A DNA stretch of 64,000 nucleotides from Candidatus Hatepunaea meridiana (GTDB lineage Bacteria > Electryoneota > AABM5-125-24 > Hatepunaeales > Hatepunaeaceae): assembly GCA_030765125.1 (NCBI GenBank), contig JAVCDD010000180.1, positions 7,033-71,032 on the forward strand. Direction: 5' to 3'. Below the pieces are notes generated by a model. That model worked only from the letters and a program-made list of their open reading frames with translations, searched no databases and was not told the origin of the DNA. Below are positions 1 to 56,660 of this stretch, piece after piece. The translations under genes and the position numbers were made by a program. Within the stretch, counting starts at the first letter, position 1. Each line of letters starts with the position of its first letter.

Positions 1-3000
1 ATACGGCGCGGGTCGGGATCTTCATCCAGTATTATATCCCCGATATCCTCAATGATTTCAGGTGGATCGTTGACCGGATTGATCACCAACCGGAAGTCCA
101 GATCGGTTGAAGCACCCGGTTCGTCGGTGGCTCGAATGGTAATTTCTACGCCGTCCGGGATATTGTAATTCGGTTCAGGTTCGAAATGCAGTACATTGAA
201 CTGGTCGACCTCCATATTCAACTCTTCTGGAGCGTCGATGACCGAAAAGTTCATTTCGTCTTCTTCTATATCGTAGAACACTTCGTCGAGGTCAGCCACG
301 TCAACCCGGTCAGGGTCTTCGTCAATCCTTATATTTTCAATCTGTTCGACAATCCGCGGTGCATCGTTGATGGCGTTAACGACGACTTCGAAGACGTCTT
401 CCGCCGTTTCTTCACCATCTGAAGCGGTGATCGTAACATCGACGTTCCCGTTCCAATCCGCTTCAGGCTGGACATAGAGCCTGCCCTGTACAATGCGAAT
501 ACTAAGCCCTTCAGCGTCGGACTCCTGGAACTCAAGATCGTCATCATCATCCGGGTCAACGAAGTGATCGTTCAGATCGGCAATTAGCCTTTCACCGTCG
601 TCCTCGTCAAATTCCTGATCGGGGATTTCCTCTACTAATATGGGTGGTTGATTTACGTGACCGACGGTAATATCAACCGTTGCGCGGGTCCTGCGACCTC
701 CCTGGTCACTTACTTCGAAGATCGGGCTGTATTCACCTTCATCATCAAGATCGGTCTGCCAGTTGAATGTGCCCGTGTTATCACCATTATCAGTGAATTC
801 CGCGCCGCGGTCTTCAGTTCCGTCGTCAACCAGCATTAACAGTTCCAGTTCGTCACCTTCAAACTCGATGTCAAAATCGTCAGCGGTCAGAGTGAATTCG
901 ATTTCATCGCCCTCATCAACATTTACCTCATCCAGCGGGTCAACCCAGAAGGGAGGGTCATTGACAGGGGTTATGGTAACCAGGAATACATCGTCAATGC
1001 TGTCATCACGGCGCGGGGAAGAAGAATTTTGGATTTTGGATTTTGAATGTTGAATGTCAGTAGCGTAAGCATTCCCGCTTGCGGAAACCATACACGCTGT
1101 TCGTAGCGCCGACGTCTTAACGGCATTACCGGAATTATAAGATGGTCTGAATACCATTAAGGCTCTACCGCCTTGATCATCGTCTGCTGTTACGGTTACT
1201 TCGAGATCATCACCGTTGAAATTCTCCGGAGCTTCCAACAGCAGCATATTATCATCGTCAATCTCTGCCGTAAGAGGTTCATCCGCTTCAACAGAGAATG
1301 ACAGATCATCGTCATCCGGGTCCTCGAATACCTCATCCAATACTGCGACTTCAAACTGACCGAAGTCCTCGGGTACACGCATATCCGCAATCGGGCTGAC
1401 TACCCGAGGTGGCTGGTTGATGTTGTTAACGGTGATATTAACCGTCAGATCATCGGTTCCATCATCTGTGTCGGTTACGCGGAAGACAGGGGTATAAGGA
1501 TCATCACGACTATCATCAGCGCCAGGCGTCCAGGTAAATTCTGCCGTGCCGTCGTCGTTATCAGCAAATTCCCATCCGTCAGGCAATTCACCTTCGTCGA
1601 ATACCGACCAGACCAGATCGTTGACATCATCTTCAACATCACTTGCCTGGAAGACGATATGGAGTTCTTCCTCTTCAGTAACATCAACGTCAATCTCATC
1701 GCCTAAAGCCTCGCCCTGATCGTCTTCGATAACAGGATCATCGTTAATCGAAAGGACGTTGATCGTGAATTCATCGGTAATTGATTCGTCTCTTCGAGGA
1801 GGAGAAGAATGTAGGATGAATTTTGAATGTTGAATGTTGAATGTTGAATGTTGATTATTGATTCGGGCGGCGATCATAATTCGCTGTCCCCAACTGTCCT
1901 CGGCTTCGATAATCACCTCTGATTCACCGAAGTAGTTCGGATCTGGTTCTACGGACAGGATGTGTGTTTCAATATCAATATTAGCGTTCAATTCTTGAAT
2001 CTCATTAGCTTCGATGATGTCAAACTCTAAATCATCACCATCCGGATCATCGAAAACATCGTCCAGGTCGGCGATTTCGATTACACCGGCGTCCTCGTCA
2101 ATATCTATATCGTCAATCGGATTTACAACTTCCGGAGGACGGTTGAAGTTGCCGACGGCGATGGTGATCTCCAGATCGACATCTTCCTCACCATCGGATA
2201 CCGTGAAGATTGGCGTATATTCACCTTCGTCTTCGAACGTTGTCTGCCAGGTAAAGCTTGCCGTACCGTGCTCGTTATCATTGAGTTCCGCTTCATCCGG
2301 CAGACCACCGCGGTCGCTGAATTCGATGGTCAGATCGTTGTTGTTGTCCACGTCATCCTGGGCAATAAGTTCGAAACGGGCAACGTTTCCTTCGTTTACC
2401 TCGTAACGATTGTCTTCAGGATAGCTCTCCCAGACCGGTGGATCGTTGAGCGGATTAACGGTAACAGTGAATTCATCGGATACGGTCTCGTCGCGGCGGG
2501 GTGGAGGGTTGAAATAGGGGGACAGTATACCTATTTCTGTTAATGGACCATCGTTCTTTTCAAGAGCACTCATGAAATAGGTATACTGTCCCCCTATTTC
2601 TGCGAGGCTTCGAGATGGCTGCACATTAACCATCAAACGCCCACCGTTCTCCTCATCATCTGCTGTCACGGTTACGATTAGATTCTCACCGTAAAAATCA
2701 TCCTCCGGTCTCAACGTCAGGATATTCTCATCGCTGATTTCCAGATTCAGTTCTTCAGTACCTTCCACCGAGAAAGTAAGATCGACGCCGTTCGGATCTA
2801 CGAAAATTTCATCCAGGTCGGCTACCTCCAACAGACCGGAATCTTCGTCGATTTCGACATCGTCAATCGGATTTACAACTTCGGGAGGATCGTTGATGGC
2901 TATGCCGGCGATATCAACCGTCAATTCAGCGTTGTCAGGATCGTTGGAGCTAATTGTTATTACGTCGCGGAACACACCGGCGTCTTCGGGAGCGAAGGTT

Positions 3001-6000
3001 ACAGTCAATTCATAGTTGTCTTCGGATTCAATAGTAAGTTCTTCGGCAAAGTCAAAACTGAAGTCCTCACCATCGGAAGTTATTTCGAATATTGTCAGGT
3101 CTCCATTGCCTTCGTTGCTTATGGTCAATATCAGTTCTTCGCTCTCGTGAATTGAAACGTTGCCAAAGTCCAGAACATTGGGGGATATGACAATTGCAGG
3201 ATGCGGGACAAAGTCTGTTACGTCAATGATTACCAAACCATTCTCACCGTCGGCGACGTATGCCATATCTCCCACGATCTGAACCCGTTTGGATAAGCCG
3301 TCTGTGTTATGGGCAGCAATCTCGCTCATATCTTCGGGGTCGGACACGTCGATAATTCCCAAGCCTTCCTCCCCGTCACAAACAAAGGCACTATTGCCTC
3401 GTACATCGATGCCCGTCGCTTCACCTTCGGTATCAAACGAGCCGACTTCAGCCGGATTTTCAGGATCGGATACATCGACCACAATAAGTCCATCATTCCA
3501 TTGTGCTACATAGGCGTAATCCCCGACGATAACGACATCCCAGGCTTGACCCGGAGTATCAAAGGATCCAATCTCATCCGGGTCCTCAGGATTGGAAACA
3601 TCGATAATACGAAGACCGCCTCCAGCAGCAGCTAAATATGCATAGTTCCCGTTAACGTCGACGCCTCGTGAATTACCCGGTGTTTCGACTGTGCTGATTT
3701 CATCAGGGTTCTCAGGGTCGGAAATGTCAATTATACTAAGTGCACTACTCCCTTGGCTCTCATCTGCTACATAGGCATAATCGCCCTCAACGCAGACATC
3801 CCAGGCATACATTTGCCACCTTTCGAGTGCGCCAACCTCTTCAGGGTTCTCAGGATCGGAAATATCGATTATGCGAAGCCCACTTCCGAAGTCCGCTACA
3901 TAAGCATAGTTTCCGATTACGAAGACCGCGCGAGATGTCCCTGGAGTATTGTAGAATCCGATTTCATCTGGGTTCTCCGGATCGGTTACGTCGATCATGC
4001 GAAGACCGCTGTTTCCATCTGCAACATATGCAAAGTCGTTTACAACAAAAATCCCCTGGGCATCTCCCGGTGTGTCGTAGGAGCCTACCTCGTCAATCTG
4101 CGGCTCCCGTCCTGTGCCGGTCAGGTCAACGGTCAGTTCATCGTTATTGGGATCGTCAGATGAAATGGTCATTGTGGCGGTGAAATCACCGGTTTCTTCA
4201 GGTATAAAGGAAACGATTAACTCGAAACTGCCTTCCGGTTCGATAACTAACTCGTCCTCGAAGTTGCTGCTGAAATAATTTTCATCAATTGAAATATCGG
4301 ATACGGTCAGGTCGGCGTTGCCTTCGTTGCCAATAGTGAGAATCAGATCACTCCGCTGGTGGACTGCCACTCCGCCGAAGTCCAGTGATGCCGGTGTTAC
4401 AGTAATACCTGCTTCCGGTTCTTGATGGAAGTAAAAAGCGCCCATATCCGCCTGTGTTTCATCAGGATCGTCCGGCGCGTCCGGATCACCGGAGTCGATG
4501 CAGGGGCTGTTGCGGGTCAGGGAATAATCATCATTGTCTATGTCCGCGAACAATGGATCGGAATCAATGTTCCCCGCTCCGGCGTATCCACCTTGAATAT
4601 CGGAGTAGGCGATGGTTAAACCAGCAGGAGTAGCTCCCGGTTGGTTACCCCAGAAGATCGAGTTCACGATTTGAGCGGAGGAGTTATCATAAGTATGAAT
4701 TCCACCATTGCCGGTCTCGCCGATGTTGCCGGTTATAGTTACGTTTATCAAAGTGGGATCGCTGTCGTGTGTGCTGTAGATAGCTCCACCCCAACGACGG
4801 GCGTTATTGCCCTGTATCAACAGATGATCCAGCGTCGGGGCAGCGTCATTGATGTATATTCCTCCGCCGTAGTTGGAATTTCCATTGCGGATAGTGAAGC
4901 CCATCAAGACCGCATCTACTCCAATTCCATCGCGCAAAGTAACCACACTGCCACCGGCGTTGCCGTCTATGATGGTCGATTCTATATAAGCCTGATCGCC
5001 GGTAGTCAATAACAGGCTGGCAACGACTATCTCCTTACCAATGAAGTTGATGCGTTCAGAATAGGTTCCGGAATGAACAAGCACGGTGTCACCGTTCTCG
5101 ACGGCGTTGATAGCCGCCTGGATGGTTCCATAGTCATCCGGGACGTTGAACAGATGCCTGCCGGGGATACCAATTCCGGTCAGTTCGATGGTGGTTACCC
5201 TTTCGTCAGGATCGTCCGAAATGAGGGTCATAAAGGCTTCAAAATCACCGATGTCGTCAGGTGTGAAGGTAACAGGCAGAGACGCCTGCCCTTCCGGTTG
5301 GATGACAATGGCGTTCTCGAAAGTCGGTACGAATGTCTCCGATCCGCGGATGGTAACTTCCGAGACGGTAAGATCGGCGGCGCCCTCGTTGCGGATAGTC
5401 AGGATCAGTTCTTCGCTGTCATCTATACTGACCTCGCCGAATTCCAGGATTTCCGGCTCAACGGCAATATCCGGAGCCACACCTGAACCGGTCAAGGTGA
5501 TTGTTATTTCATCCTCTTCAGGGTCGTTGGATGCTATGGTTATTATTCCCTCAAAATCGGCGACAGCATCCGGTGAGAAGGTGACGATCAGGTCGGTGTT
5601 GTCGTCGGGTTCAATATTGATTGCATCTTCAAAATCACTGTTGAAGTTGTCACCTTCAATTGTCACTTCGGATACGGTAAGAGGACCTTCGCCTTCGTTG
5701 CCGATGGTTAAATTCATCCGGGCATTATCATCGATTACAACTTCACCGAAGTCAAGATTGTACGTTGAAACTGTAATTGCCGGGTGCGGCATAAAGTCGG
5801 TCACGTTCAGGATGCGCAGTCCGCTGGCTCCATCAGCAACATAAGCGTGAGTTCCGATCACTGAAACATCGTAAGCCTCGTCAGGCGTGTTATAAGATGC
5901 GGTTTCACCAATATTTCCCAAGTCGGAAATGTCTATTACCTGCAGTCCACTCTCCATATCCGCAACGTAGGCGAATCTTCCCAAAACCGTTACGGCAACG

Positions 6001-9000
6001 GCGCGATCTGGCGTGTCAAGTTCACCGAGTTCTTCAATATTTTCGGGGTCGGATATATCGAGGATATGTAAACCACTCTCGTTGTCTGTAACGTAGGCGA
6101 TAGATTCGATGATGAATATTTCCGTTGCAATGTCGGGAGTATCGTAGCGTCCCGTTTCTTCGATATTCTCAGGATCGGAAATGTTCAATACTAACAATCC
6201 ATTAGCGCCGTCTGCTACGTAAGCATATTCACCAATGACTGTTACAGCGTGCGCCAATCCCTCTGTATTAAAGGATCCAACCTCGCTCGGATGCGCCCTG
6301 TTTGATATATTGACCACCCTCAGACCGCTCTCCATATCTGCTATATAAGCGATTGTGCCGACAACAGCGACATCAACGGCATTTCCGGGAGTGTCGAATT
6401 CACCTGTTGGATTGGGGTCTCCGGGATCAAAGACGTCTATGACTTGTAAGCCGTTTTCATCGGCGGCTACGAAAGCGTAGTCTTCCGACACAACAACGCT
6501 CATTGCGGTTCCGATATCACCGGCTGATGCGACCTCGTCAGGGTTCTCAGGGTCGGTTATGTCTATTACTCTTAAGCCTCCGTCACCATCTGCAACGAAA
6601 GCGAAATCTTCTATGACGGTAACTCCGTAAGCTGTTCCATCGGTGTCATAGTTTCCTACTTCGTCGATGTCCGGTTCGCGTCCGGCGCCGGATAACTGAA
6701 CAATTATTTCACCGTTTTCGGGATCGTTTGAGGTGATGGTTAATGTGCCTTCGAAATCACCTGCTTCTTGGGGGGCGAAGGTGACAGACAGGAATGTCTG
6801 TCCTACCGGGTCGATGACAATGGGGTCTTCGAAGCTGCTACTGAACCAGACTCCTTCAACGGTTACATCGGATACGGTTAAAGGACCGTCGCCTTCGTTG
6901 CTGATGGTGAGTCTTTGATCAATACTGCGTTCTATCTGTATAGCGCCGAAGTCCAGTTGTTCCGGTTCAACGACTATTATTGGAACTACGCCTGTGCCGG
7001 TTAATGCTATGGCTATTACCTCTTCATCCGGATCATCAGAGGATATGGTCAGTGTTGCTTCAAAATCACCTGATTCCTGTGGAGCGAAAGTAACGGTCAG
7101 ATCGAATTCCTCATCCGGTTGGATGACGAACGCTTCGTCGAAGTCGCTGCTGAAGTAATTCCCTTCAATTGCGATGTCAGAGACGTTCAATTCAACCAAA
7201 CCATCATTGCTTAATGTAAGCGTCAGATCAGCGCTCTCGCCTCCTGACACCTGACCGAAGTTCAATTCATTCGGATTAACCATTAGATTCGGTTCTTGCG
7301 CCTGGTGGTAGTAGAGTGCGCCCATATCGGCGCGGGTTTCGTCCGGGTCTTGATCGGCGTTGGGATCACCGGTGTCGACGCAGGGGCTGTTGCGCAAGAT
7401 TTGGTAGTCGCTGTTGTCTGCATCGGCAAATAAGGGATCTTCCTCGATGTTGCCTGCACCGGCATAGCTGCCTTCAATATCTGAGAAGGTGATCGTCATA
7501 CCGTTCTGCAGATCAGGCGGTTCGTTGCCCCATATAATAGAATTAATCACCTGAGCACTCGCTCCACCGCCGCCGATGCCAATAGCAGCGTTGTCGCTGT
7601 TTGCAGTGTTACCGGAGATGGTTACGTTGACGAGAATGGGAATGGAACCGCTGGTGGCGTATAGCCCACCGCCGCGTCCACTGGCGACGTTGTCGACTAT
7701 AGCGAGGTGATCGAGCGTGGGCGTGGTCTGATCGCCGTTGCAATAGATACCACCGCCCCAATCGGTGTCGGCATTTCTAACGGTAAAGCCGGTCAGGATT
7801 GCCGCTTCCGTTTCACCGTTGCGGAAGACGACCGTACTCCTGCCGTTTGCGCCGCCGTCAATTATGGTCGATTCGATGTATTCAGCCTCACCTGTGGTCA
7901 GGTACAGACTGCCGACGGTTACGTCTATGCCGTTGAAGTTGACGTTCTCTTCGTAGGTGCCGGGTTGAACCAGCACGATGTCACCGGCTATGGATACGTC
8001 GATTGCTTCCTGGATGGTTTCATAGTCATCCGGCACGTTGACGGTGCGCGCTTCGGTCTCTATACCGGTGCCACTCAAATCAACGGTTACTTCTCCTTCA
8101 TCGGGATCGTCGCTGGTTATGGTCAATACAGCTTGCAGATCGCCTGTTTCACCGGGCAAGAAGGTTACATTAACTTCAGAACTTTCGTCCGGTTGGATGA
8201 CAATGGGGTTTAAAAAGTCGCTGCTGTAGTAGGCGCCTGCAATCGTTATATCGGAGACGGTCAGTTCGATATTGCCTTCGTTAGAGATAGTTATGGCTAA
8301 CTGGGACGACCTGCCCATTTCAGTTTCAGGGAAGGCGAGGGCTTCGGGATCAACGGCGATGTCAGGTGTAAGTCCCGATCCGGTTAAGGGGATGTTTATC
8401 TCACCCTCATCGGGATCATTGGACGTTATGGTCAGCGTTCCTTCGAAATCACCGGTTTCATTCGGCTGGAAGTTTACGTTGAACTGCCGGTTGCCGTCCG
8501 GTGCAATTACGAATTCCTCCTCAAAGTCCGAGGAGAAATATTGACCTTCGATGGAAATATCCGAAACAGTAAGATCGGAATTTCCATCATTGGTGATTAT
8601 CAATGGCAGAGTGGATATTTGTCCCACCAGGCAGTCGCCAAATGGGAAGGAATTGCGGTTAACGGTAATATCCGGCGCCACGCCTGAACCGCTTAGCGCA
8701 ACCTCAACCTCCGGATCGTCCGGATCATCGGAAAGTATAGTCAGGGTTGCATCAAAATCGTTCACCTCTTCCGGCGCGAACGTAACGGTCAGCTCAAAGT
8801 CCTCAAACGGTTGGATGACGATTTCTTCATCAAAATCGGTCAGGAATGTCTGCGCTCCCCGGATTGAAATATCCGAAATGGTCAATTCCCAGTTGCCATC
8901 GTTGCTGATGGTTAACGTCAGGTCTTCAGTTTCACCGGTTACAACCTCACCGAAGTCGAACGCTTCGTCTGAAAGGGTGATTTCGGGGTATTGGACGAAG

Positions 9001-12000
9001 TCGGAGACGTCGAGGATTAATAAACCGTTATTCCCATCAGCCACATATGCATAGTTTCCTACAACAGAAACATCCCAAGAATGTTGAGTTCGGTGATTAC
9101 CAACCTCATCAGGATTCTCAGGATCTGAAACATCTATTAAACGTAGACTGCTTTGACCGGCGGGAGTAAAGCATGCAACATAAGCTATGTTACCTACAAC
9201 AGTTAAGTCTCGAGCATAATCACGTGTATCTTGAGATCCAACTTCGACCAATTCATCTGGGTTAGAAATATCAATAATTCTTAGACCTTCTGTATAATCT
9301 GCTACATAAGCATAGTTTTCTATGACTGAAACACCCAGAGCTGCACCTGGAGTATCATATATTCCTAATCCTCCAAGGTTACGAGCATTAATCAATATTA
9401 AACCTGTCTGATTATCTGCAACATAAGCGATCTCATCAACTATCACAACATCCCGTGCGATTTGCGGCGTGTTAAATGAACCGGTTAATCTTGGATCTTC
9501 AGGGTCGGATATGTTAATAGCTTGCAAACCGCTACGTCCATCAGCTATGTAAACATAATCTCCGCTGACCGCAATACCTTCTGCCCAATCAGGAGTATCA
9601 CAGCTTCCTATTTCATCAGGTTCCTCAGGATTAGACACATCAATAATACGGAGACCGCTCTCGTAATCCGCTACAAATGCCAAATTATCCGAAACCACCA
9701 CATCATAGGCATTTCCTGGAGTTTCACAGAAACCTATCTCATCTGGATTCTCTGGATCAGAGATATCTATTATCCGTAGACCCCCTGCATTATCTGCTAA
9801 ATAGGCAATATCCCCGACAATATCTATACCAAATGTTACACCATTAGTATTATAATGCCCCACTTCCGGTATCGCCGGTTCCCTGCCGACTCCCACCAAT
9901 GCAACATCCACTTCCCCATTATCCGGGTCGTCGGAAGTTATGGTCAGTGTCCCCTCGAAGTTGTTCTCGCTGTCCGGTGTGAACCGAACGGGTAGTTCGA
10001 AGGTGGCGTCCGGTTCGACGATCATCTCTTCATCGATATCCTCAAAGATACTGCTGAAGTTGTCGTGTCCGATTGATATATCGGATATGGTCAGGTCGCC
10101 GTCACCGTCGTTGCCGATGGTCAGGATGAGCTCGACGGTCTGGTCGATTACGACCTCGCCGAAGTTCAGCGATTCGGGATCATGCGTGAGGATAGGCGCA
10201 ACGCCCAGTCCGCTTAAGTTCACATCCAATTCTCCATTATCCGGATCATCGGATGTTATGGTCAGCGTTGCCTGCAGGTCTCCGGTCGCGTCAGGTGCAA
10301 AGGTTACGGTCAGTTCATAGGGCTCGTCCGGTTCGATGACGACCTCACCGTCGAAGTCGCTGGTGAAGTAGTCACCCGCGATTGATATGTCGGAAACGGT
10401 CAGAGGCGCGCGTCCCTCGTTGTTATCAATAGTGAGAATCATATCTGTCTCGTGACCGACTACCGTGTTGGGGAAGACAAGCTCTGCCGGTGTTACAGCG
10501 ATAACGGGAGCCGCTTCCTGGAAGAAGTAGAGGGCGCCCATATCGGCGCGCGTGGTGTCGGGGTCTTCGGGAGCGTCGGGATCGGCTGCGTCAACGCAGG
10601 GGCTGTCCTCAGTGATGTAGAAGTCGTTGTTGTCTGTGTCAGCGAAAATGGGATCGGAATCAAGGTTGTCTACTCCAGCGTAACCGCCCTCGATGTCGCA
10701 GTATGCAACGGTCAATCCGTTCGGCATTCCGGCGGGTTGGTTGCCCCAGACGATTGAGTTTCCGATAGTGGCTGAGGCGCCTGCAAAGATATTAATAGCG
10801 CCGACCTCTTCGTTTGCCGTGTTGCCGTAAAGGGTTATAAAGTTCAGATCAGGATTGGCGTTGTTGGTGGCGTAGATACCTCCACCGCGGCTGGTGGAGC
10901 TGTTTCCGTAGATTACCAGATGATCCAGCGTCGGGCTCGCGTCGTTGATATAGAGCCCACCGCCGAAGTCGGTTGAGCCGTTGCGAATGGTGAAGCCTAT
11001 CAGTTCCGCTTCGTCTGTCTCACCGTTGCGGAAGGCGACTACACTACGCCCGTTGTCGCCGCCGTCGATTATGGTTGAGGCTATGTCATCCGGATCGTCG
11101 CTCTCGATATATTGGCTGGCAACCGTGATGTTTTTGCCGCGGAAATTGATGTTCTCATTATAAACACCGGGGTCGACCAGAACGCGGTCGATGTCAATGG
11201 CTTCGTCAATGGCTGCCTGGATGGTCTCGAAGTCATCAGGGACGTTGTATTCGCGGGGCTGTGCTTCGATGCCGGTTCCTGACAGGGCAACAGCAAGCTC
11301 ACCGTTGTCGGGATCGTCTGAGGTGATGGTCATAGTGGCTTCGTGGTCACCGGTCTCGGTGGGGGAGAAAACGACAGACAGGAATGTCTGTCCTACCGGT
11401 TCTATGATTATTTCGTCTGTAAAGTCGCTGCTGAAATAATCCCCTTCAAAGGTTACGTCTGTAATGTACAGGTCTGTATCGCCGGTGTTGCTGATGGTTA
11501 TGACAGACAAGGATGTCCGTCCCACCTCAGTATCAGGGAATCCAATGGCTTCGGGGTCTATGGTGATTTCGGGGTATTCTACGATGCCGCCGGTAACTTC
11601 GGAACAGTTGAAGATGTAAAGCCCTTCATCCTCATCGGTGATATAGGCGTAATTGCCGGATACATACAAGCCGATAGCGTAGCCTGGAGTGTCGTGGAAA
11701 CCAATCTCTTCCGGTTCGGCAGGGTTTGAAACGTCTATCAAGCGCAATCCCTCGTCACCATCGGCAACATAAGCGAAATCATGCGCGACAAAGACGCTTT
11801 CGGATGAGCCGGGAGTGTTTACAAAGCCGACCTCTTCCGGTTCTGCGGGGTTTGATACGTTTATAATGCGAAGTCCACTGCCTGAAGCGGCGACATAAGC
11901 ATAGTCACCGGCTGCGAAAACTCCATAGGCACGACTCGGCATTTCGAGATTGCTCACTTCATCCGGATTTTCCGGGTCGGACACGTCGATTATGCGCAGT

Positions 12001-15000
12001 CCACCGGCTTGATCTGCAAGATAAGCGTAGTCACCTGAAACGTAAACTGAAAAAGCTTGACCGGGTGTGTCGAACGCTCCAATCTCATCGGGATCATCGG
12101 GGTTGGAGACATCAATTATACGCAGACCGCTGGCGCCGTCTGCAACGTAGGCAAGATTGTCTTTGTAATAAACAGCATACGCGGCACCCGGGGTGTCGAA
12201 GGTTCCGACCTCATTGGGATTTTCGGGGTCTGAGATGTCGATTATGCGCAGTCCGCTGGCAGCGTCCGCAACGTAAGCATACGAACCAGCAACGTCTATG
12301 CCGGTTGCTTCACCGGGGGTGTCGTAGGAACCGACAGCCTGCGGTTGACCGGGGTCGGATACGTCGACAATCTGCATACCTTCCCAGTAGTCAGCTATGT
12401 AAGCCAGCCCTCGCGAGACGTAGACGCCTTCGGACATTCCGGGCGTTTCGTAATGACCTACCTGCCGGATCTGCGGACCGGTTCCGATGCCGGTTAAATC
12501 AACTTCAATCTCCTCGTTTTGAGGGTCGTTGGAGGTGATGGTCAGTGTGCCAGCGTAATCGATTGTTTCTACAGGTGTAAATGTTACGGTCTGTTCGATG
12601 CTGTTGTCGGGTTCTATGGTGATTTCGTCCTCAAATACGGTTTGGAATACTTCGTCACCCTGAATGGTAATATCAGTGATGATAAGATCCTCATTTCCTA
12701 CATTGGTGATGGTGAGGATAAGATCGCGGTCAATGTCAATGGCAGACTCGCCGAAGTCGAGCGCACCCGGTGAGATCCTGATAGTCGGAGGCTGGGGTTG
12801 CTGTTGGTAGTAGAATGCGCCCATATCGGCACGTGTTTCATCGCTATCCTGGGGCGAGTTCGGATCACCGACGTCTATACAGGGGGAGTCTTCGGTCAGT
12901 TGGAAATCATCATTGTCAAAGTCGGCAAATAAGGGATCCTGATCGATGTTGCCGGCGCCGTTATAACCACCCTGAACGTCAGAATAGGTAATGGTTTGTC
13001 CACCAGGAAGCGCTGCCGGGGTGTTTCCCCAGAATATCGAGTTGACTGCCTGTGTTTGAGCGCCACCCCCTCCAACACCTATTCCGCCGTTACCGCCATC
13101 GGCGTCGTTGTTGGTGAATGTTATGTTATTCAGGAGCGGTTGCGCACCAGTGGTGACATAGATGCCTGCACCTCGTCCGCTGACGTGATTGCCTGTTATC
13201 AATAGATGATGCAATGTAGGATTAGCGCCACGGATGTAAGAGCCGCCGCCGAAGTCGGTATCTGCATTGCGGATTGTGAAGCCTGCGAGGACAGCTTCGT
13301 TTGTCTCACCGTTGCGGAAGACCGTTACGCTTCTGCCGTTGGCGTCACCGTCGATAATGGTCGAAGCGATGTAATCAGGATCACCGGTTGTGATATAGAG
13401 GCTGCCAACGACGATATTCTTACCAATAAAGTCAATGATCTCAGTATAGGTTTCAGGTTGAACCAGTACTGTGTCACCGTCAGCAGCGTTGTCGATTGCT
13501 TCCTGGATGGTGTCGTAGTCGTCCGGAACGTTGATTATAAAATCTCGTCCCGATCCGGAAAGAGCTACTGCGAGATCCTCGTTCTCAGGATCGTCAGATG
13601 CTATGGTAAGTGTTCCAACGAAATCATCAATGTCATCCGGTGAGAAGGTTACGGTTAATTCGCGACTTTCATTCGGTTGGATGACGATCTCATTCTCGAA
13701 ATCGCTGATGAAGTTGTCCCCTTCAATAGTTATATCGGATATAGTCAGATCACCGAAACCGGTGTTGCTGATAGTGAGTATCAGGTCTGCTTCGTCGTCA
13801 ATCGGAACAGCACCGAAGTCCAGGGCATCCGGAGATACGTCAATAGCGGGGATCGCTTCGACACCGATTCCGGTCAGGTTCACATCCAGGTTCTCGTTAT
13901 CCGGATCGTTAGATGTGATTACAAGCGTGCCGGCGAGATCACCGGTATCATCCGGCTGGAAGGTGACAGTTACATCAGAAGTGTTGCCCGGTTCGATGAC
14001 CACTTCATTCTCGAAATCTGAACTGAATATGTCTCCTTCAATAGTAATATCCGAGACATTCAGGTTTTCACGTCCTCTATTTCGGATGGTTAGAATCAGA
14101 TCGGCGCTCTGGTCGACTACTACCTCAGCAAAGTCAAGCGCTTCAGGAGAAACAACGATGCTCGGTCCCTCTGCCTGGAATAACGGGAATGTTCCCATAT
14201 CGGCGCGTGTGCCGTCCGGGTCTTCGGGTGCATCAGGATTGCCTGTATCTTTACAGGGGCTGTCATCGGTCAGGTGAAAATCATCATTGTCGGGATCAAC
14301 GAACAATGGATCTGTATCTATGTTGCCTCTGCCGTTATAACCGCCCTGGATATCAGAGAATGTGATCGTCTGGTTGGCGGGAATATCTGGTGGGGCATTA
14401 TCCCAGAATATGGAGTTTACAATAGTAACCACTGATCCACCGAAAACATCCAGAACACCGTTGTTTTGCTCAGAATCATTGCGGGTCAGGGTAACGTTTG
14501 TCATCGTAGGACTACCGCCGCCATAGGCAATTATCGCACCGCCCCATCTTACGGTATGGTTATCGGTGATCAATAAATGATCCAGTATCGGGCTGCCGCC
14601 ATTACAGAGTATTCCCCCTCCGAAATCAGCGGCGCCGTTGCGAATTGTAAAACCGGACAGGATGGAATTCACTGTCTCACCGTTGGCAAAGGTTACAACG
14701 CTAGTGTTATTAGCATCGCCATCGATTATGGTTGATTCAACGTAATCCGCATCACCTGTAGTAATAAACAGGCTGCCTACAATGATTTCCTTGCCGTTAA
14801 AGTTGATGTTTTCTGTGTATGTCCCGGGCGCTACCAAAACAGTATCCGTGTCGATGGCATTATCAATAGCTTCCTGTATAGTATCGAAATCATCAGGCAC
14901 ATCGTGTACATGATCGAGCGGTTCGATGCCAGTTCCAGTTAAAGCGACGTCAACTTCTTCTTCATTCGGGTCATCGGATGTAATAGTGAGCGTTCCCTGG

Positions 15001-18000
15001 TAATCTTCTATATCATCAGGTGCAAACGTTACCGTAACATCATAACTGTTGTCCGGTTCGATTACGATTTCATCTTCTTCGAAGTCGTGCGTGAAAACAT
15101 CACCTTCAATAGTGATGTCAGTTACGGTCAGATCGGTACGACCATTATTCCTGATTGTGAGCGACAGTTCAGCGCTCAATTCAAGCTCAACCTCTCCAAA
15201 GATAAGTTGAGCCGGTATTACCGATATGTTTGGCTCTTCCGGCAGCTCGAAGTAGAAGGCGCCCATATCATTGCGTGTTTCGTCAGGATCCTGTGGTGAA
15301 TTCGGATCACCTGCATTTATACAAGGGGAGTCTTCAGTTAATTGGAAATCATCATTATCAAAGTCGGCAAATAAGGGATCGGAATCAAGATTCCCTGCTC
15401 CGGCGTATCCACCCTGAACATCGGAATATGTAATAGTCTGACCGCCAGGAAGCGCTGCAGGTGTGTTTCCCCAGAATATCGAGTTGATTACCTGGGTTTG
15501 AGCGCCGCCCCCACCGACTCCGATTCCACCGTTGGCACCGTCGGCATCGTTGTTGGTGAATGTTATGTTATTCAGGAGCGGTTGTGCTCCGGTAGTGGCA
15601 TAAATCCCTGCGCCGCGTCCGCTGACATGGTTGGCGGTTATTAATAGGTGGTGCAATGTTGGACTGGCGTCACGGATGTATGAGCCGCCTCCGAAGTCGG
15701 TATCTGCATTGCGAATTGTGAAACCGGCAAGGACGGCTTCGTTTGTCTCGCCGTTGCGGAAGACCGTTACGCTTCTGCCGTTGGCGTCACCATCAATAAT
15801 GGTCGAAGCGATATAGTCGGGATCACCTGTGGTGATATACAAACTGCCGACAACGATGTTCTTGCCAATAAAGTCAATGATTTCAGTATAGGTCTCAGGT
15901 TGAACCAGCACCGTGTCGCCGTCAACAGCGTTGTCGATTGCTTCCTGAATGGTATCGTAGTCATCCGGAACATTGATTATGTAATCCCGTCCCGATCCTG
16001 AAAGAGCAACAGCGAGATCCTCGTTCTCCGGATCGTTAGATGCTATGGTTAACGTTCCATTAAAATCACCAACGTCATCCGGTGAGAAGGTCACATTTAA
16101 TTCATAGCTGTCATCCGGTTCGATTACAACCTCATTCTCGAAATCGCTGATGAAATTGTCACCTTCAATGGTTACATCGGATATAGTCAGATCACCGAAG
16201 CCGGTGTTGCTGATGGTTAGTATCAAGCCTGCCTCGTCGTCAACCGGAATTGCTCCAAAGTCCAGCGCATCCGGCAATACTACTATTGCAGGAATCGCTT
16301 CGACACCGATTCCGGTCAGGTTCACCTCCAGATCTTCATTGTCCGGATCGTTGGATGTGATTACAAGCGTACCAGCGAAATCTCCGGTAGCATTCGGCTG
16401 GAAGGTAACGATTACTTCAGAAGTGTTGCCTGGCTCGATGACTACTGCATTCTCAAAATTGCTGCGGAAGTTATCCCCCTCAATTGTTATATCGGATACC
16501 CTTAAGTCTTCACGTCCTCTATTTCGGATGGTGAGCGTCAGATCAGCGCCCTGGTCGACTACTACCTCAGCAAAGTCGAGAGCTTCAGGGGAAACAACGA
16601 TACTTGGTCCTTCAACCTGGAACAGCGGGAATGTTCCCATATCAGCGCGTGTGCCGTCCGGGTCTTCGGGTGCATCAGGATTGCCTGTGTCTTTACAGGG
16701 ACTGTCATCGGTCAGGTGAAAATCATCATTGTCGGGGTCAACGAACAATGGGTCTGTATCTATATTGCCTCTGCCGTTATAACCGCCCTGAATGTCGGAG
16801 AAGGTGATTGTTTGGTTAGCCGGTATATCAGGTGGGTCGTTATCCCAGAATATGGAGTTTACAATAGTAACCACTGATCCACCGAAAACATCCAGAGTGC
16901 CGCTATTTTGCTCGGAATCATTACCGGTCAGGGTAACGTTTCTCATCGTAGGACTACCGCCGCCATACGCAATTATCGCACCGCCCCATCTGACGGAATG
17001 GTTGTCGGTGATCAATAAATGATCCAGCATCGGGCTACCGCCATTACAGAGTATTCCCGCTCCGAAGTTAGCACCGCCATTGCGGATAGTAAAACCTGAC
17101 AGGACGGAATTCACTGTCTCACCGTTGGCAAAAGTTACTACGCTCGTGATATTCCCATCACCGTCAATAATTGTTGATTCGACGAAATCTGCATTACCTG
17201 TTGTAATAAATTGACTGCCGACGACGATTTCCTTGCCGCCAAAGTTGATGTTTTCAGTATAAGTTCCGGGCGCTACCAACACAGTATCCGTATCGATGGC
17301 GTTATCGATGGCTTCCTGAATGGTATCGTAGTCGTCGGGAACGTTGATCCTGAAACTTCTCCCGATTCCAGAAAGAGCGACAGCCAACTCTTCGTTCTCC
17401 GGATCATCTGATGCAATAGTAAGTGTCCCATTAAAATCACCTACGTCATCAGGAGAGAATGTAACCGTTAATTCATAACTGTCATCCGGTTCGATTACAA
17501 CCTCATTCTCAAAGTCGCTGCTGAAGTTATCGCCTTCAAAGGTAACGTCCGAAACGGTCAGGTCACCGAAACCCACGTTGGCGATAGTGAGTATCAGATC
17601 CGCATCGCCGTTAACCACTACCGCACCGAAGTCCAAAGCATCTGGAAATGGATCAATAGAAGGGATAGCTTCCACGCCGATTCCTGTCAGATTAACCTCC
17701 AATTCCTCGTTATCCGGATCATTGGATGTAATTACAAGCGTTCCGTTAAAATCACCTGTATCATCAGGCTGGAAAGTGACAGTTACTTCATAAGTGTTGC
17801 CCGGCTCGATGTCCACTTCATTATCAAAATCGCTTCTGAAGATGTTCCCCTCAATCGTTATATCAGATACATTTAAGTCTTCGCGTCCCCTGTTTCTGAT
17901 AGTGAGCGTTAGATCGGCACTCTGGTCGACTACAACCTCAGCAAAGTCAAGCGCTTCAGGAGAAACAACGATACTTGGTCCCTCTGCCTGGAATAGTGGG

Positions 18001-19862: not shown

Positions 19863-19910
19863 GATGGGTACCTTTTGTATGATTTCTCGATTGAATTGTG
19901 AAGGTTATGA

Positions 19911-20078: not shown

Positions 20079-20317
20079 GATTCCTTGATTCCTGTGAATA
20101 GATTTACCAATAGGTGTGAATCAGATTCGCATTTGAAAGGATAAAAACGTGTTCAGTTTAAACTGTTAGAGGATATGCTTTGAGTTACCAGTAGGAAGAA
20201 ATGATAACTTGAAACAGATAATAATAACCTAATAAGATGTGCAAAAACCTTGCCGGTTTATTCTATCACTGCGTTGAAAGGAAGCGTCGGGAAGGGCAGA
20301 CATTCTTGTCCGTCACG

Positions 20318-20724: not shown

Positions 20725-20802
20725 ACGTACTGAGTGCGCGCTTTAGGGCGTAAAGTTAATAATATAAACATAGTCAACACGCACTAAAGTGCGCACTCTG
20801 AA
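20725..20802. repeat. Family B long hairpin (TTCAGAGTGCGCGC..GCGCGCACTCTGAA type) between cistrons
   Basis: The arms gtactgagtgcgcgctttagggcgt and acgcactaaagtgcgcactctgaac are related to the hairpins at 50143-50226 and 50667-50760. Confidence 0.7.
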
Positions 20803-23857: not shown

Positions 23858-23944
23858 AAATAGGGGGACAGTATACCTATTTCATAAATACTCTTTGAAA
23901 TAACGACGGTCAATAAAGAAATAGGTATACTGTCCCCCTATTTC
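23858..23944. repeat. Family A palindromic element, intergenic copy
   Basis: The arms aaatagggggacagtatacctatttc (23858-23883) and gaaataggtatactgtccccctatttc (23918-23944) sit in the 131-bp spacer between the Mrp-NifX stop and the OYE start. Confidence 0.8.
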
Positions 23945-34000: not shown

Positions 34001-34227
34001 TCAACAGCAACGTTCGGATAGATTACAAGTTAGAAGCAAACCAGCAGGTTTCACTGAAAGTCTTCGATCTGTCAGGTCGGTTAATATTCAGCGCTGACCC
34101 GCAGTTACGCACCATAGGTTCACATTCGTTGACATTGGATGCGGTAAATTGGGCGTCAGGTATCTACATCGCTCAACTGAATGCAGACAAGAAGGTAAGA
34201 ACAAAACGGTTTGTCTGTCTGAAATAG
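31069..34227 (+). CDS. Secreted repeat protein (about 12 units of about 60-65 aa with a DG(E/N)xxW signature) with T9SS C-terminal sorting domain
   Basis: A 1052-aa ORF with Shine-Dalgarno aaggagga at 31057-31064 and signal peptide MRCIMLLILSTLLLSAATGDIYA. Recurrent motifs include ADGEPQWG, INGELLWG, SEGNTLWE, TDGEPLWG, QEGERLWD, ADGERLWG, ANGEPVWG and TDGNTLWD. The CTD, LYPNPFNSNVRIDY...GIYIAQL...RFVCLK, spans 33976-34224. Confidence 0.85.
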   Translation: MRCIMLLILSTLLLSAATGDIYAQTNWLKWSPVEGVPVRQGNEIKWTNNGATCIEGERAGETAIVWEDTRNGFRNISIQIIEADGEFHFPEGGVNIFESSTMRYDPVICSGPDGDWFIAWMDVQTGLRPEIRCTRINADGEPQWGADENGISLENRETSGYQPAIISDDNGGCIILWWGHDENNNREIFAMHVLENGEPDENWADGGLPIPNLPGYDLSYNIASDGEGGIIISWLHYLENYTPILMIQRLSINGELLWGDGEAVQICDSPFNGESPKIVSDGDGGAIIEWMDSRNEDDRNTDIYVQRVDSEGNTLWEDNGSQLISTEDFELAPQLVPVSQGEAISVWYVYRQENRIFDIYAMRFGGNDELEKFWEPEEGLPIVVEQDGERERIDIFQDGEGGVFITWVDGRNGGYSGEYDIYAQRLNTDGEPLWGENGIPVSTADGKQDTPLIAPVAGDGCLVVWANGQFSVVRNIQAQILDSEGEAVWDEDSRAIVNADPGSAYQSRLVKAADDVFAVGFIENCFVRSTALPKVKFYRDLGNRVECLNDEGSITVVDNSNIGFSELEIAADGEGGVIVFWSEYRENNRSVFAQRITQEGERLWDNDGVSVFETEGEIFNPIICSDEMGGVFIACNYFRVDMQEILLQHLNADGERLWGNEDVRLLDENSDMLIQGIIPDGENGAAVLYSTINRSEYGLHINRITANGEPVWGNGDGIDINSSEEFRQDQSRMLKHPDGYAVIWQQNRWIDNHRNTCFDVLIQFVDTDGNTLWDENGIQVCNLDAQANNPFGVVDEDGYIWVLWSDDRLDEDRAYSLYLQKIDPLSDENDDPSFMLEENGQQVISAEGSQYQSLLIPDDDGGVWAAWTDSRRQYETDIYATHLDSQGERCEGWADDGNIVCDAIMGQSFPRGAMLRSSGETGIILLWDDWRSSRDEDEGAVLNLYCQRVDDPSENFAGDAASTAPVSFEITALYPNPFNSNVRIDYKLEANQQVSLKVFDLSGRLIFSADPQLRTIGSHSLTLDAVNWASGIYIAQLNADKKVRTKRFVCLK

Positions 34228-34616: not shown

Positions 34617-34714
34617 CCCATTTTGTCATTCCCGCGAAGGCGGGAATCCAGAGTTTTCAAGTATTTAACAAACACCATCTGGATTCCCGGCCTTCGCGGG
34701 AATGACAAAATGGG
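34617..34714. mobile_element. 98-bp MITE-like element with about 36-bp terminal inverted repeats, each containing an ATTCCCGC-GAAG-GCGGGAAT hairpin
   Basis: The arms are cccattttgtcattcccgcgaaggcgggaatccaga (34617-34652) and tctggattcccggccttcgcgggaatgacaaaatggg (34678-34714). Confidence 0.7.
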
Positions 34715-34848
34715 AAGTATTTCAACAGGATCATTAATATAAGAGATTAAATATTTGGAATTGGGACATAACTCCTCTTGAAAGTGAAATGGATTTTACT
34801 ATATTAGGATAACTAATTCACATTTCCAAACACAAAAGGAGTTACAAA

Positions 34849-35202: not shown

Positions 35203-35251
35203 TTCACCTCACAGGCAGGGTCGCCTGCGGCTCCTGTATTTCGGCTAACAT

Positions 35252-35372
35252 TGTCGGACAAGAGTGTCCAACCTACTAAAACATCGGTAGGATAGGCATT
35301 CCTGTCTGTCGTACACCTCTTAATTATAGGCATCGTTTGACAGACAAGAATGTCTGTCCTACCCTTCGTGTG
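35252..35372. repeat. REP cluster: one type-2 REP plus an inverted pair of type-1 REPs (REPIN/BIME-like), all with GTAG heads
   Basis: 35252-35276 is tgtcggacaagagtgtccaacctac, the reverse complement of GTAGGTTGGACACTCTTGTCCGACA. 35287-35310 is GTAGGATAGGCATTCCTGTCTGTC. 35349-35372 is gacagacaagaatgtctgtcctac, an inverted copy. Confidence 0.75.
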
Positions 35373-56599: not shown

Positions 56600-56610
56600 G
56601 GGATTTAAGG

Positions 56611-56660
56611 GTAGGACAGACATTCCTATCTGTCGGTAGGTTGGACACTCCTGTCCGACA
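56611..56660 (+). repeat. Two tandem REPs with GTAG heads (type 1 then type 2)
   Basis: GTAGGACAGACATTCCTATCTGTC (56611-56634) is followed by GTAGGTTGGACACTCCTGTCCGACA (56636-56660). Confidence 0.8.

What the first reader, a model, noticed from the sequence alone, without database searches (positions are those of the whole stretch)
6783..6809. GTAG-headed REP 27-mer occurs twice inside Ig-like domains of the giant ORF without changing domain length
The minus strand reads ccGGTAGGACAGACATTCCTGTCTGTC, that is GTAG plus an 8-bp stem and a TTCC loop. This is the canonical REP layout, in which a GT(A/G)G tetranucleotide next to the palindrome is what RAYT transposases recognise.

The identical 27-mer is at 11373-11399. 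Near-identical copies are intergenic at 35287-35310, 35349-35372 and 56611-56634.

In the ORF it encodes PVGQTFLSV at a position where paralogous domains have PDNSYDVIV, PDDSYELTV or PEGQASLPV. It has therefore replaced a beta-strand segment without adding length. A chance 27-mer identity is not credible. The alternatives are that the REP overwrote coding sequence by conversion, or that the REP family derives from this gene.
Basis: partly seen in the sequence, partly recalled or inferred. Interest (0 to 1): 0.75.

Follow-up and report, generated by a model that had tools for sequence, protein, structure and literature searches.

The report
REP hairpins overwriting Ig-domain beta-strands
Two exact copies of a small mobile DNA hairpin (a REP element, normally found between genes) sit in frame inside a giant bacterial surface-protein gene, where each replaces eight codons for a beta-strand without changing domain length, and related genomes show the same swap happening repeatedly.

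Summary
GTAGGACAGACATTCCTGTCTGTC is exact at 6783-6806 and 11373-11396 on the minus strand. Both copies lie in frame in a 6901-aa T9SS surface protein of Candidatus Hatepunaea meridiana. Each encodes VGQTFLSV where 18 of 19 other paralogous Ig-like domains have D-x-S-Y-E-L-T-V-type sequence. Domain length is unchanged.

It is a genuine REP. The same 24-mer occurs with unrelated flanks in at least 73 genome assemblies from about ten phyla. In three of them it directly flanks a RAYT (REP-associated tyrosine transposase) gene. The REP family therefore does not derive from this gene.

Two further points came from this work.
- The window holds more in-frame relics, at 11502, 8835 and 5271.
- Three related genomes carry 12 REP-type hairpin cassettes in the same domain family. 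All are sense and frame 0. They show compensatory stem changes.

In two collinear orthologous proteins, six domain pairs disagree. One has the cassette and the other has native sequence, as a roughly 8-9-codon block replacement.

Intragenic REPs are already known, but as insertions. Length-neutral, recurrent replacement of a core beta-strand appears to be new. The mechanism is unresolved: it could be REP-templated overwrite or conversion between paralogous domains. No RAYT was seen in the 64-kb window.

The parts
6783..6806 (-). Exact REP (GTAG + 8-bp stem + TTCC loop), in frame 0. It encodes VGQTFLSV in the Ig domain at aa 4311-4408 (E-strand site).
   Evidence: The AlphaFold2 model (pLDDT 96.8) places V57-G58 in a turn and Q59-F66 in a beta-strand.
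11373..11396 (-). Second exact REP at the same domain position and in the same frame, in the Ig domain at aa 2781-2878. It lies 4590 nt (1530 codons) from the first, in direct orientation.
11502..11525 (-). Degenerate REP copy GTGGGACGGACATCCTTGTCTGTC, 20/24, with the stem kept through a G-T pair. Frame 0, encodes VGRTSLSV. It replaces the A-strand segment of the same domain with no length change.
8835..8858 (-). Relic cassette GGAGCGCAGACATTCCTGACCGAT, frame 0, encoding GAQTFLTD, at the C/C' strand site of the domain at aa 3643. It shares 18 nt with a cassette at the same site in L122.
   Evidence: A 17/24 match alone is near chance level. The shared site and the L122 match make it credible.
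5271..5294 (-). Probable decayed cassette GAAGGGCAGGCGTCTCTGCCTGTT, encoding EGQASLPV, at the same E-strand site in the domain at aa 4814. It matches the REP variant GTAGGACAGGCATTCCTGCCTGTC at 18/24 nt and its peptide VGQAFLPV at 6/8 aa.
   Evidence: The variant is seen next to the main REP in L022, L024, L057, L085 and L100. This is suggestive only.
3..19904 (-). Host gene: a giant choice-of-anchor D protein (6901 aa in full, MDP8239314.1). It has a signal peptide, beta-helix modules, 21 HYDIN/ASH Ig domains, LVIVD repeats, cadherin-like domains and a T9SS C-terminal sorting domain. Its 3' end lies beyond the window.
35253..35362 (.). Intergenic REP cluster downstream of two convergent genes: 35253-35276(-) variant GTAGGTTGGACACTCTTGTCCGAC, 35287-35310(+) and 35339-35362(-). 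The last two form an inverted pair 28 nt apart.
56611..56659 (+). Two adjacent intergenic REPs after the stop codon of ORF 51070-56562: 56611-56634 (23/24) and 56636-56659 (variant).
20291..20314 (+). Intergenic REP-like copy GAAGGGCAGACATTCTTGTCCGTC (20/24).
50422..50445 (+). Intergenic GTAG-headed hairpin of a related stem family (GTAGATGCGACACTCCTGTCGCAT).

Best explanation
The two 24-mers are genuine copies of a widespread, RAYT-associated GTAG REP family. They were written into the coding sequence of a giant T9SS surface-protein gene by a copy-and-overwrite event, not by simple insertion.

Each replaces eight native codons at the turn plus E-strand of an Ig-like domain. The donor was either an extragenic REP or the other in-gene copy.

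The copies survive because the REP read in sense frame 0 gives V-G-Q-T-F-L-S-V, a turn followed by an alternating beta-strand that the fold accepts. A protein with 21 redundant domains also buffers any cost.

This is one instance of a birth-and-decay process in this protein family. Cassettes arrive as perfect hairpins. Some are kept palindromic through compensatory changes, and others decay into ordinary coding sequence.

Shown:
- REP identity.
- Block replacement with no length change.
- Recurrence of the process.
- Discordance between orthologous domains.
- Covariation in the stem.

Inferred:
- The molecular route (template switching or short-patch conversion, with or without RAYT).
- That the copies are passengers rather than functional.
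For: REP identity:
- The same 24-mer gives 146 matches in 119 loci from 73 assemblies of about ten phyla. Flanks are unrelated and the copies are mostly extragenic.
- RAYT genes are flanked by it in L094 and L032, and L008 has a copy near its RAYT.
- The window holds at least 6 intergenic family members, including an inverted pair.

Replacement, not insertion:
- There is no gap at the site in 21 paralogs or in the closest homologs.
- The model places the REP-coded residues in a core strand.

Recent arrival or homogenisation:
- Flanks are 58% identical, as for average paralogs. Inside the REP 0 of 9 codons differ, against 18 of 44 elsewhere.

Recurrence:
- L122, L124 and L125 carry 12 cassettes at the C/C' site. 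All are sense and frame 0.
- A phmmer search of 1.84 billion representatives found the motif only in this clade.

Ortholog discordance:
- P0243 and P0245 are collinear and 68% identical.
- In 6 domain pairs the cassette is present in one and native sequence in the other. Identity is 0.34 in the block, against 0.66 in the flanks and 0.75 beyond.

Link between in-gene variants and the REP pool:
- GTGGGTCAGACATTCTTGTCTGAC and GTAGGGCAGACATTCCTGTCTGCC occur as extragenic REPs in other phyla.
- L125 has extragenic GGCGGACA-type hairpins close to its own in-gene GGCAGACA type.

Hairpin maintenance:
- 88.5% of cells are paired. Four of 8 pairs show changes on both sides. None of 500 shuffles reaches the covariation score.
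Against: - No flanking homology is visible that could anchor classical gene conversion at the window's two sites.
- No RAYT is in the 64 kb, and the rest of the MAG could not be reached.
- No close relative of the source genome exists, so the ancestral state at 6783 and 11373 is inferred from paralogs only. The nearest housekeeping homolog is 58-59% identical.
- In some discordant ortholog pairs the divergent tract extends about 10 codons beyond the hairpin. This fits paralog conversion better than a REP-sized patch.
- One cassette pair (L122 12355 and its L124 orthologue in the domain at aa 1601) is old yet still a perfect palindrome in L122. That hints at maintenance rather than pure passenger decay.
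- All sequences come from metagenome assemblies.
Confidence: 0.55

Rival explanations
1. One rare REP capture, then spread between paralogous Ig domains. After a single founding event, the cassette moves to the same position of other domains by short-tract gene conversion. The conversion is anchored on the conserved flanking motifs and perhaps stimulated by the hairpin. Extragenic REPs are not the direct donors of most copies.
For: - Copies always sit at homologous domain positions and in the same frame, with net length change of 0 or +1 codon.
- In some discordant ortholog pairs the divergent tract runs about 10 codons beyond the hairpin: up10 identity is 0.47 and 0.53, down10 is 0.42.
- Nearly the same GGAG-AGCCGACA cassette sits in non-orthologous domains of L122 and L124.
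Against: - In the window, identity ends exactly at the REP edges and the flanks are only 58% identical.
- Cassettes occupy three different domain sites (A, C/C', E) and two registers (GTGG type +0, GGAG type +1 codon). This needs several founding events anyway.
- Variants within one gene differ by compensated stem pairs that also exist as extragenic REP variants.
- The window copies equal the cross-phylum master sequence 24/24, including GTAG.
Confidence: 0.2
2. The hairpin is functional in place and is kept by selection. One role could be an mRNA structure in a transcript over 20 kb, for example a barrier to 3' exonucleases, a processing site or a translation pause. Another could be a DNA recombination hot spot that remodels the domain array. 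The two identical direct repeats lie 1530 codons apart and in register, so recombination between them would give a clean in-frame deletion.
For: - Compensatory changes keep perfect 8-bp stems even at the price of amino-acid changes such as Q/P, T/I and V/A/D.
- An old cassette is still a perfect palindrome in L122, while its flanks have diverged about 25% from the L124 orthologue.
- The two window copies are the only perfect 8-bp hairpins in the 19.9-kb gene.
- The 11373 copy is followed by GTTTTCT, which looks like a terminator.
- REPs are known to act on mRNA stability (established knowledge; PMC3733652).
Against: - Several cassettes have decayed (8835, L124 domain at aa 1601, L125 domains at aa 1078 and 2795), as expected without constraint.
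- Only 2-6 of about 20 domains carry one, and orthologs do without.
- Terminator-like sites in the region are not above chance: 6 found, 7.2 expected.
- Intra-strand quasi-palindrome correction would give the same covariation without selection (established mechanism, not tested here).
Confidence: 0.12
3. Ordinary RAYT-type insertion of a 24-nt REP (+8 codons), followed each time by a compensating in-frame deletion of the displaced native strand.
For: - Known intragenic REPs are insertions (PMC3733652).
- In other genomes this same REP adds residues within real genes: the L094 methyltransferase and the L089 doublet. L110 (Lhr-type helicase) and L010 (C-terminal tail) also carry it in open frames, but no added length was checked there.
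Against: - It needs an exact 24-nt compensating deletion at least 3 times in the window and about 8 times in L122/L124.
- None of about 60 aligned domains shows a +8-codon intermediate.
Confidence: 0.05
4. The REP family originated from this coding sequence. A coding hairpin was adopted by a RAYT and spread from there.
For: - GQT and LSV can be encoded by mutually complementary codons.
- The domain family has G..F.S and L.V at the sites involved.
Against: - The identical REP is extragenic in about ten phyla and flanks RAYT genes there.
- The peptide is absent from 147 of the 150 best domain relatives among 1.84 billion representatives. It is also absent from the closest homologs at the E site.
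- Two metagenome scans for the domain context found nothing real.
Confidence: 0.04
5. Artefact or chance: a metagenome mis-assembly, or coincidental similarity driven by the amino-acid motif.
For: - The source is a short-read MAG from Ace Lake.
- The gene is highly repetitive.
Against: - The match is 24/24 twice, with 0 expected.
- Both junctions are in frame inside well-aligned domains.
- The same phenomenon appears in three independent assemblies from different projects.
Confidence: 0.03

Closest known systems
GTAG-type REPs and their RAYT / TnpA_REP transposases (REPtrons). Sources: Nunvar 2010 PMC2817692; Messing 2012 PMC3479197; Di Nocera 2013 PMC3733652; Corneloup 2021 PMC8266576.
   Same: - GTAG directly 5' of a short perfect palindrome.
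- Multi-copy, mostly extragenic, downstream of genes, with inverted pairs.
- The same repeat flanks a RAYT gene in other genomes.
- Head variants GTGG and stem variants with compensated pairs.
   Different: - The copies studied here are inside a gene and replace codons.
- The family is identical at 24/24 across about ten phyla, while the associated RAYTs are only about 47% identical.
- No RAYT could be shown in the source genome.
Intragenic REPs and Rickettsia palindromic elements (RPE). Source: Di Nocera 2013 PMC3733652 and references in it.
   Same: - Palindromic repeats that persist in frame inside protein-coding genes, often in modular proteins.
- This window also has a classical case: the 90-bp inverted-repeat element at 2511-2600.
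   Different: - Those are described as insertions that add 20-80 residues.
- Here 8 codons substitute for 8 native codons of a core beta-strand, at homologous positions of repeated domains. The state differs between orthologous domains.
Cassette-type gene conversion in surface proteins, such as pilE/pilS antigenic variation (from my own knowledge, not tested here).
   Same: A short segment of a surface-protein gene is overwritten without length change. A DNA secondary structure may trigger the event.
   Different: - The donor here appears to be a selfish repeat, or a paralogous domain, rather than a silent gene copy.
- There is no evidence of programmed variation.
Quasi-palindrome correction by intra-strand template switching (from my own knowledge, not tested here).
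   Same: It would explain how a change in one arm is copied to the other, giving compensated stems inside coding DNA without selection.
   Different: It cannot by itself create identity to the REP head and loop.

Membership tests
GTAG REP (RAYT-associated repetitive extragenic palindrome) | GT(A/G)G tetranucleotide directly 5' of a short stem-loop that is stable as single-stranded DNA | tested here: met
   The sequence is GTAG + GACAGACA / TTCC / TGTCTGTC. It folds at -8 kcal/mol with z = -4. The role of GTAG is taken from PMC8266576 and PMC3479197.
GTAG REP (RAYT-associated repetitive extragenic palindrome) | Many dispersed copies with unrelated flanks, mostly extragenic | tested here: met
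Flanks are unrelated. The window has at least 6 intergenic members in 5.4 kb of spacer. The copy number in the source genome is unknown.
GTAG REP (RAYT-associated repetitive extragenic palindrome) | The same repeat flanks a RAYT gene (REPtron) | tested here: met
   This is met in other genomes only. The RAYT segment of L094 scores 88.3 bits on NF047646 (cut-off 80) and hits Pfam Y1_Tnp. Homologs of 47% identity in L032 and L008 have the REP or close variants on both sides.
GTAG REP (RAYT-associated repetitive extragenic palindrome) | A cognate RAYT in the same genome | not testable with these tools
   tblastn finds none in the 64-kb window. Other contigs of the MAG could not be fetched.
GTAG REP (RAYT-associated repetitive extragenic palindrome) | Cleavage and strand transfer of the single-stranded REP by the RAYT | not testable with these tools
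   This needs biochemistry.
REPIN (inverted REP doublet as the replicating unit) | Two REPs in inverted orientation at a short, fixed distance | tested here: not met
   The in-gene copies are singletons in direct orientation. An inverted pair exists only in the spacer at 35287/35339.
Intragenic REP / RPE-type insertion | The repeat lies in frame inside a real gene | tested here: met
   The frame is open for 6634 codons. Pfam domains lie on both sides, and the product is annotated as MDP8239314.1.
Intragenic REP / RPE-type insertion | The repeat adds residues relative to homologs (an insertion, usually in a loop) | tested here: not met
   There is no length change against 19 paralogs and against homologs. 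The coded residues form a turn plus a core strand. This feature is met for the separate 90-bp element at 2511-2600.
   The motif is present in 2-6 of about 20 domains. Orthologous domains disagree on its presence. It is absent from 147 of the 150 best relatives. Intergenic copies share no flanking similarity with the domains.

The most novel reading that the evidence does not exclude
REP hairpins act as mobile beta-strand cassettes. Through a RAYT- or hairpin-driven copy-and-overwrite reaction, a REP can replace a stretch of unrelated DNA of its own length.

Repeated Ig-domain arrays of giant surface proteins would then record these events with a known 'before' state, given by paralogs and orthologs. 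That would expose how REPs spread, by overwrite without target duplication. This is still an open question.

It would also make REPs a source of rapid sequence change, and perhaps of in-register deletions, in surface proteins.
Probability: 0.3. Interest if true: 0.8.

Novelty: new variant of a known kind. Interest (0 to 1): 0.62.

Why it matters
How REPs multiply is unsettled. RAYTs cleave and rejoin single-stranded REPs in vitro, but no insertion pathway has been shown (PMC8266576). In spacers the ancestral state is lost, so new copies cannot be compared with what was there before.

In this gene, 19 paralogs give that 'before' state. In related genomes, collinear orthologs give it too. The REP arrives as a block of its own length, with no target duplication and no added residues. 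This points to an overwrite or conversion type of spread.

It also shows that a selfish hairpin can survive in a structured protein core, not only in loops, when one reading frame mimics a beta-strand.

The practical lesson for annotation is that identical short repeats inside giant repeat proteins need not be domain homology.

Tried and rejected
- **Source contig.** Exact look-ups of window proteins and of other proteins of the same MAG found nothing. No genome-wide census or RAYT search in the source organism was therefore possible.
- **First homolog search.** It listed only proteins of 700 aa or less, with best identity 43-48% and no REP peptide. The giant relatives appeared only in the exhaustive phmmer search.
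- **Metagenome scans for the REP in its domain context.** The strict pattern gave 0 hits. The relaxed pattern gave 2 hits, both intergenic chance matches.
- **Literature.** No paper holds the REP 20-mer or its six-frame peptides.
- **Rfam.** Nothing in the window reaches a gathering score.
- **Insertion check in L110.** A PDB sequence search with the L110 segment (which looks like an Lhr-type helicase), meant to show that its REP is an insertion, found no match.
- **Rejected ideas.** Chance. Shared ancestry of the two host domains. An extended conversion tract around the window copies. Intergenic copies as decayed domain fragments. A terminator role, because terminator-like counts are at chance.
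- **Weak matches.** Matches of 17-18/24 are near the chance level for a 128-kb search. They were accepted only where domain position and frame agree with clearer cases.
Full report
**1. What is at the coordinates**

On the minus strand, 6809-6783 reads CCGGTAGGACAGACATTCCTGTCTGTC. The 25-mer from the G before GTAG is exact at 6783-6807 and 11373-11397. It recurs with 1-2 mismatches at 35286-35310(+), 35339-35363(-) and 56610-56634(+). None is expected in shuffled sequence.

The element is GTAG, then an 8-bp stem GACAGACA/TGTCTGTC, with a TTCC loop. As single-stranded DNA it folds at -8 kcal/mol, z = -4.

A looser family pattern finds 9 members against 0.24 expected. These include a second stem variant (GTAGGTTGGACACTCYTGTCCGAC at 35253 and 56636) and a third in-gene copy at 11502.

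**2. The host gene**

Both exact copies lie in one frame that is open from 19904 to the window edge, a run of 6634 codons. Pfam finds about 20 HYDIN/ASH-type Ig-like domains, LVIVD repeats and cadherin-like domains.

The full product is in the public record as MDP8239314.1. It is a 6901-aa choice-of-anchor D protein of Candidatus Hatepunaea meridiana, with a signal peptide and a T9SS C-terminal sorting domain.

A neighbouring window gene is 100% identical to a protein of the same MAG. The next best homolog is 58-59% identical. The organism belongs to Ca. Electryoneota and was assembled from Ace Lake, Antarctica (PMC9324843). No close relative is therefore available.

**3. Replacement, not insertion**

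I extracted the 21 paralogous Ig domains and threaded codons on the protein alignment.

- The site has no gap in any copy.
- The REP supplies codons V-G-Q-T-F-L-S-V between a conserved Pro (CCG in most paralogs) and the conserved x-F-x-P.
- Other paralogs match the 27-mer at 7-14 positions. One, encoding PEGQASLPV, matches at 19.
- The closest homologs from other contigs have EPD..ELTVTF-type sequence here.
- An AlphaFold2 model built with the paralogs as alignment (pLDDT 96.8) places V57-G58 in a turn and Q59-F66 in a beta-strand of the sandwich. The confidence of that model rests largely on the alignment.

**4. Not shared ancestry of the two domains**

Outside the REP the two host domains are 58% identical in DNA and 49% in protein. 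This equals the mean for all paralog pairs (59%), and they are not each other's nearest paralogs. Among 44 columns with the same amino acid, 18 use different codons, against 0 of 9 inside the REP. Identity ends at the REP edges.

**5. It is a real REP family, and it does not come from this gene**

It returned 119 loci and 146 matches from 73 assemblies. The taxa include:

- Acidobacteriota, which dominate
- Planctomycetota
- Chloroflexota
- Bacteroidota
- Ignavibacteria
- KSB1
- Zixibacteria
- Nitrospirae
- Kiritimatiellia
- Sumerlaeota
- Eremiobacterota

Flanks are unrelated and most copies sit in short spacers.

In L094 the REP arrays bracket a segment that scores 88.3 bits on NCBIfam 'REP-associated tyrosine transposase' (cut-off 80) and hits Pfam Y1_Tnp. 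Homologs of 47% identity in L032 (Ca. Xenobia) and L008 (Chitinophagaceae) have the REP or close variants on both sides. The window itself has no RAYT.

The role of GTAG and of the hairpin in RAYT binding and cleavage is established (PMC8266576; PMC3479197).

**6. Not a general feature of the domain**

Two metagenome scans for the REP in its P-REP-x-F-x-P context gave nothing real. An exhaustive phmmer search of 1.84 billion representatives with the domain returned 150 giant relatives. REP-type peptides occur only in the window's own protein and in three of its nearest relatives.

**7. The same process in related genomes**

Those three relatives were fetched as DNA:

- P0243 = L122 (GCA_021734165.1)
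- P0245 = L124 (JGI 3300033064)
- P0248 = L123/L125 (GCA_013202285.1)

This was done.

They carry REP-type cassettes at a different domain position, the C/C' strand. There the native I-E-G-D-N-F-S-S-D-F becomes V-V-G-Q-T-F-L-S-[AD]-F or R-G-[AE]-P-T-F-L-S-A-F. The DNA variants are:

| Head | Stem-loop-stem |
|---|---|
| GTGG | GGCAGACA-TTCC-TGTCTGCC |
| GTGG | GTCAGACA-TTCC-TGTCTGAC |
| GGAG | CGCCGACA-TTCC-TGTCGGCG |
| GGAG | CGCCGATA-TTCC-TATCGGCG |
| GGAG | AGCCGACA-TTCY-TGTCGGCT |

Each has a perfect 8-bp stem. All are on the sense strand in frame 0. A perfect hairpin of this form is expected about 0.006 times per gene by my estimate.

On 13 distinct in-gene cassettes, 88.5% of stem cells pair. 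Four of eight pairs show changes on both sides. No shuffle out of 500 reaches the covariation score. Relatedness of the sequences inflates this kind of test.

Non-synonymous changes in the 5' arm (Q to P, T to I) are matched by synonymous changes in the 3' arm.

**8. Orthologs disagree**

P0243 and P0245 are collinear and 68% identical over 2872 residues. Their domains pair one to one at 70-77% DNA identity.

- In six pairs, one partner has the cassette and the other has native sequence. Five of these cassettes are in L122 and one is in L124.
- In one pair both have it, and the L124 copy has lost its 3' arm.
- In discordant pairs, identity is 0.34 in the 8-9-codon block, 0.66 in the ten codons on either side and 0.74-0.76 beyond. 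Concordant pairs show 0.69 throughout.
- Net length change is 0 for the GTGG type and +1 codon for the GGAG type.

The cassettes are therefore gained or lost as blocks after speciation.

**9. Link between in-gene variants and the extragenic pool**

GTGGGTCAGACATTCTTGTCTGAC and GTAGGGCAGACATTCCTGTCTGCC occur as extragenic REPs in other phyla. L125 has two extragenic hairpins of GGCGGACA type, close to its in-gene GGCAGACA type. In the window, the in-gene copies equal the cross-phylum master sequence. The samples of extragenic DNA from these genomes are small.

**10. Further relics in the window**

- 11502-11525 (20/24, VGRTSLSV) replaces the A-strand segment of the same domain that holds the 11373 copy.
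- 8835-8858 (GAQTFLTD) is at the C/C' site and shares 18 nt with an L122 cassette.
- 5271-5294 (EGQASLPV) is at the E site and matches the variant GTAGGACAGGCATTCCTGCCTGTC at 18/24.

The last two are individually weak.

All in-gene copies in all four genomes are sense and frame 0. The REP is open in five of six frames, since only sense frame 1 has TAG. The bias therefore points to a filter on the peptide.

**11. What is known**

Intragenic GTAG REPs and Rickettsia RPEs are documented. They are described as insertions encoding 20-80 residues, and some GTAG families are shared by distant organisms (PMC3733652). I found no description of length-neutral replacement of a structured strand, and no paper containing this REP. 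The library is limited to open-access text.

**12. Mechanism**

Simple insertion followed by an exact compensating deletion would have to recur about ten times. No +8-codon intermediate is seen among about 60 domains. A copy-and-overwrite event fits better.

Two donors are possible.

- **Extragenic REPs as donors.** This is supported by three sites, two registers, variants shared with the extragenic pool, and a tract equal to the REP in the window.
- **Another in-gene copy as donor, through short-tract conversion between paralogous domains.** This is supported by the constant position and by tracts that in some ortholog pairs run beyond the hairpin.

Stem symmetry could be kept in three ways: by selection on an RNA or DNA hairpin, by fresh arrivals, or by quasi-palindrome correction. 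These could not be separated here.

**13. Verdict**

The REP reading is right. The 'derived from this gene' alternative is wrong. The 'overwrite' idea gains real support from orthologs in related genomes.

It is a new variant of a known kind. It has some value for the open question of how REPs spread. The limits are that all data are metagenome assemblies and that the source genome could not be surveyed.

Noticed in passing
window 2511-2600 (in the giant ORF) and 23858-23944 (intergenic): A second small mobile element: two perfect 27-nt inverted arms (GAAATAGGGGGACAGTATACCTATTTC) around a spacer of about 36 nt. It sits in frame in a loop of a cadherin-like domain, where it adds about 30 residues. 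It has an 87.6%-identical twin in a spacer. This is a classical RPE-like in-frame insertion in the same gene.
   Followed up: partly
window about 1000-1100 and 1790-1850 (giant ORF, cadherin-like domains): In-frame runs of CATTCAA / AATCCAA heptamer-like repeats give odd peptides (NIQHSTFNIQHSKF, DIQHSKSKIQNS). They lie in the same variable loop, which always ends in [PS]PRRD[ED]. Three of the cadherin-like repeats carry 35-55 extra residues here.
   Followed up: no
L094 2365-7296 (QNEE01000060.1, MAG from Guaymas): A 1643-aa ORF that looks like an N6-adenine DNA methyltransferase / restriction-type protein (family not scanned) stays open through several REP arrays and through a whole RAYT segment (aa about 700-860). 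It also stays open through a long PVGQTQQ repeat made of half-REPs. This is a REPtron lying in frame inside a gene.
   Followed up: partly
L001-L119, L032, L008, L094: The REP is identical at 24/24 in about ten phyla, although the RAYTs next to it are only about 47% identical in protein. REP families are usually lineage-specific. This suggests strong constraint on the hairpin or frequent horizontal transfer of the RAYT-REP unit.
   Followed up: partly
L110 3234, L089 224, L010 2636: The same REP lies inside other apparently real genes. It is in an antisense frame (TDRNVCPT) in a protein that looks like an Lhr-type helicase. It forms a sense + antisense doublet (VGQTFLSV...TDKNVSPT) in a 631-aa protein. 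It forms the last 11 codons and stop of a membrane protein. That these are insertions was not verified (one search found no PDB match).
   Followed up: partly
window 20733-20800, 50141-50215, 50672-50750: Another intergenic palindromic family (GTTCAGAGTGCGCGCTTCAGCGCG and its complement) occurs in inverted pairs.
   Followed up: no
window 34620-34720: A large inverted repeat built on TGTCATTCCCGCGAAGGCGGGAATCC, with arms about 45 nt apart, lies in the spacer after ORF 31069-34227.
   Followed up: no
window 57369-57392(-) and 35209-35227: A hairpin-like 19-mer (CACAGGCAGGG.CGCCTG) is shared between a spacer and the antisense strand of ORF 56819-62233 (E = 0.02). It may be another repeat caught in coding DNA, or it may be chance.
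   Followed up: no
window 11373-11392 plus the downstream GTTTTCTCCC: The 11373 REP followed by a T-rich run scores as terminator-like inside the gene. Such sites are not above chance in the region.
   Followed up: no
L125 (= L123) domains at aa 1832, 2337 and 2441 of P0248: Three domains encode VGQVS[AV]PA at the A-strand site as GTGGGGCAGGTCTCCG[CT]GCCTGCC. This is a 6-bp GGCAGG/CCTGCC palindrome that resembles the second REP variant, so it may be another cassette type.
   Followed up: no
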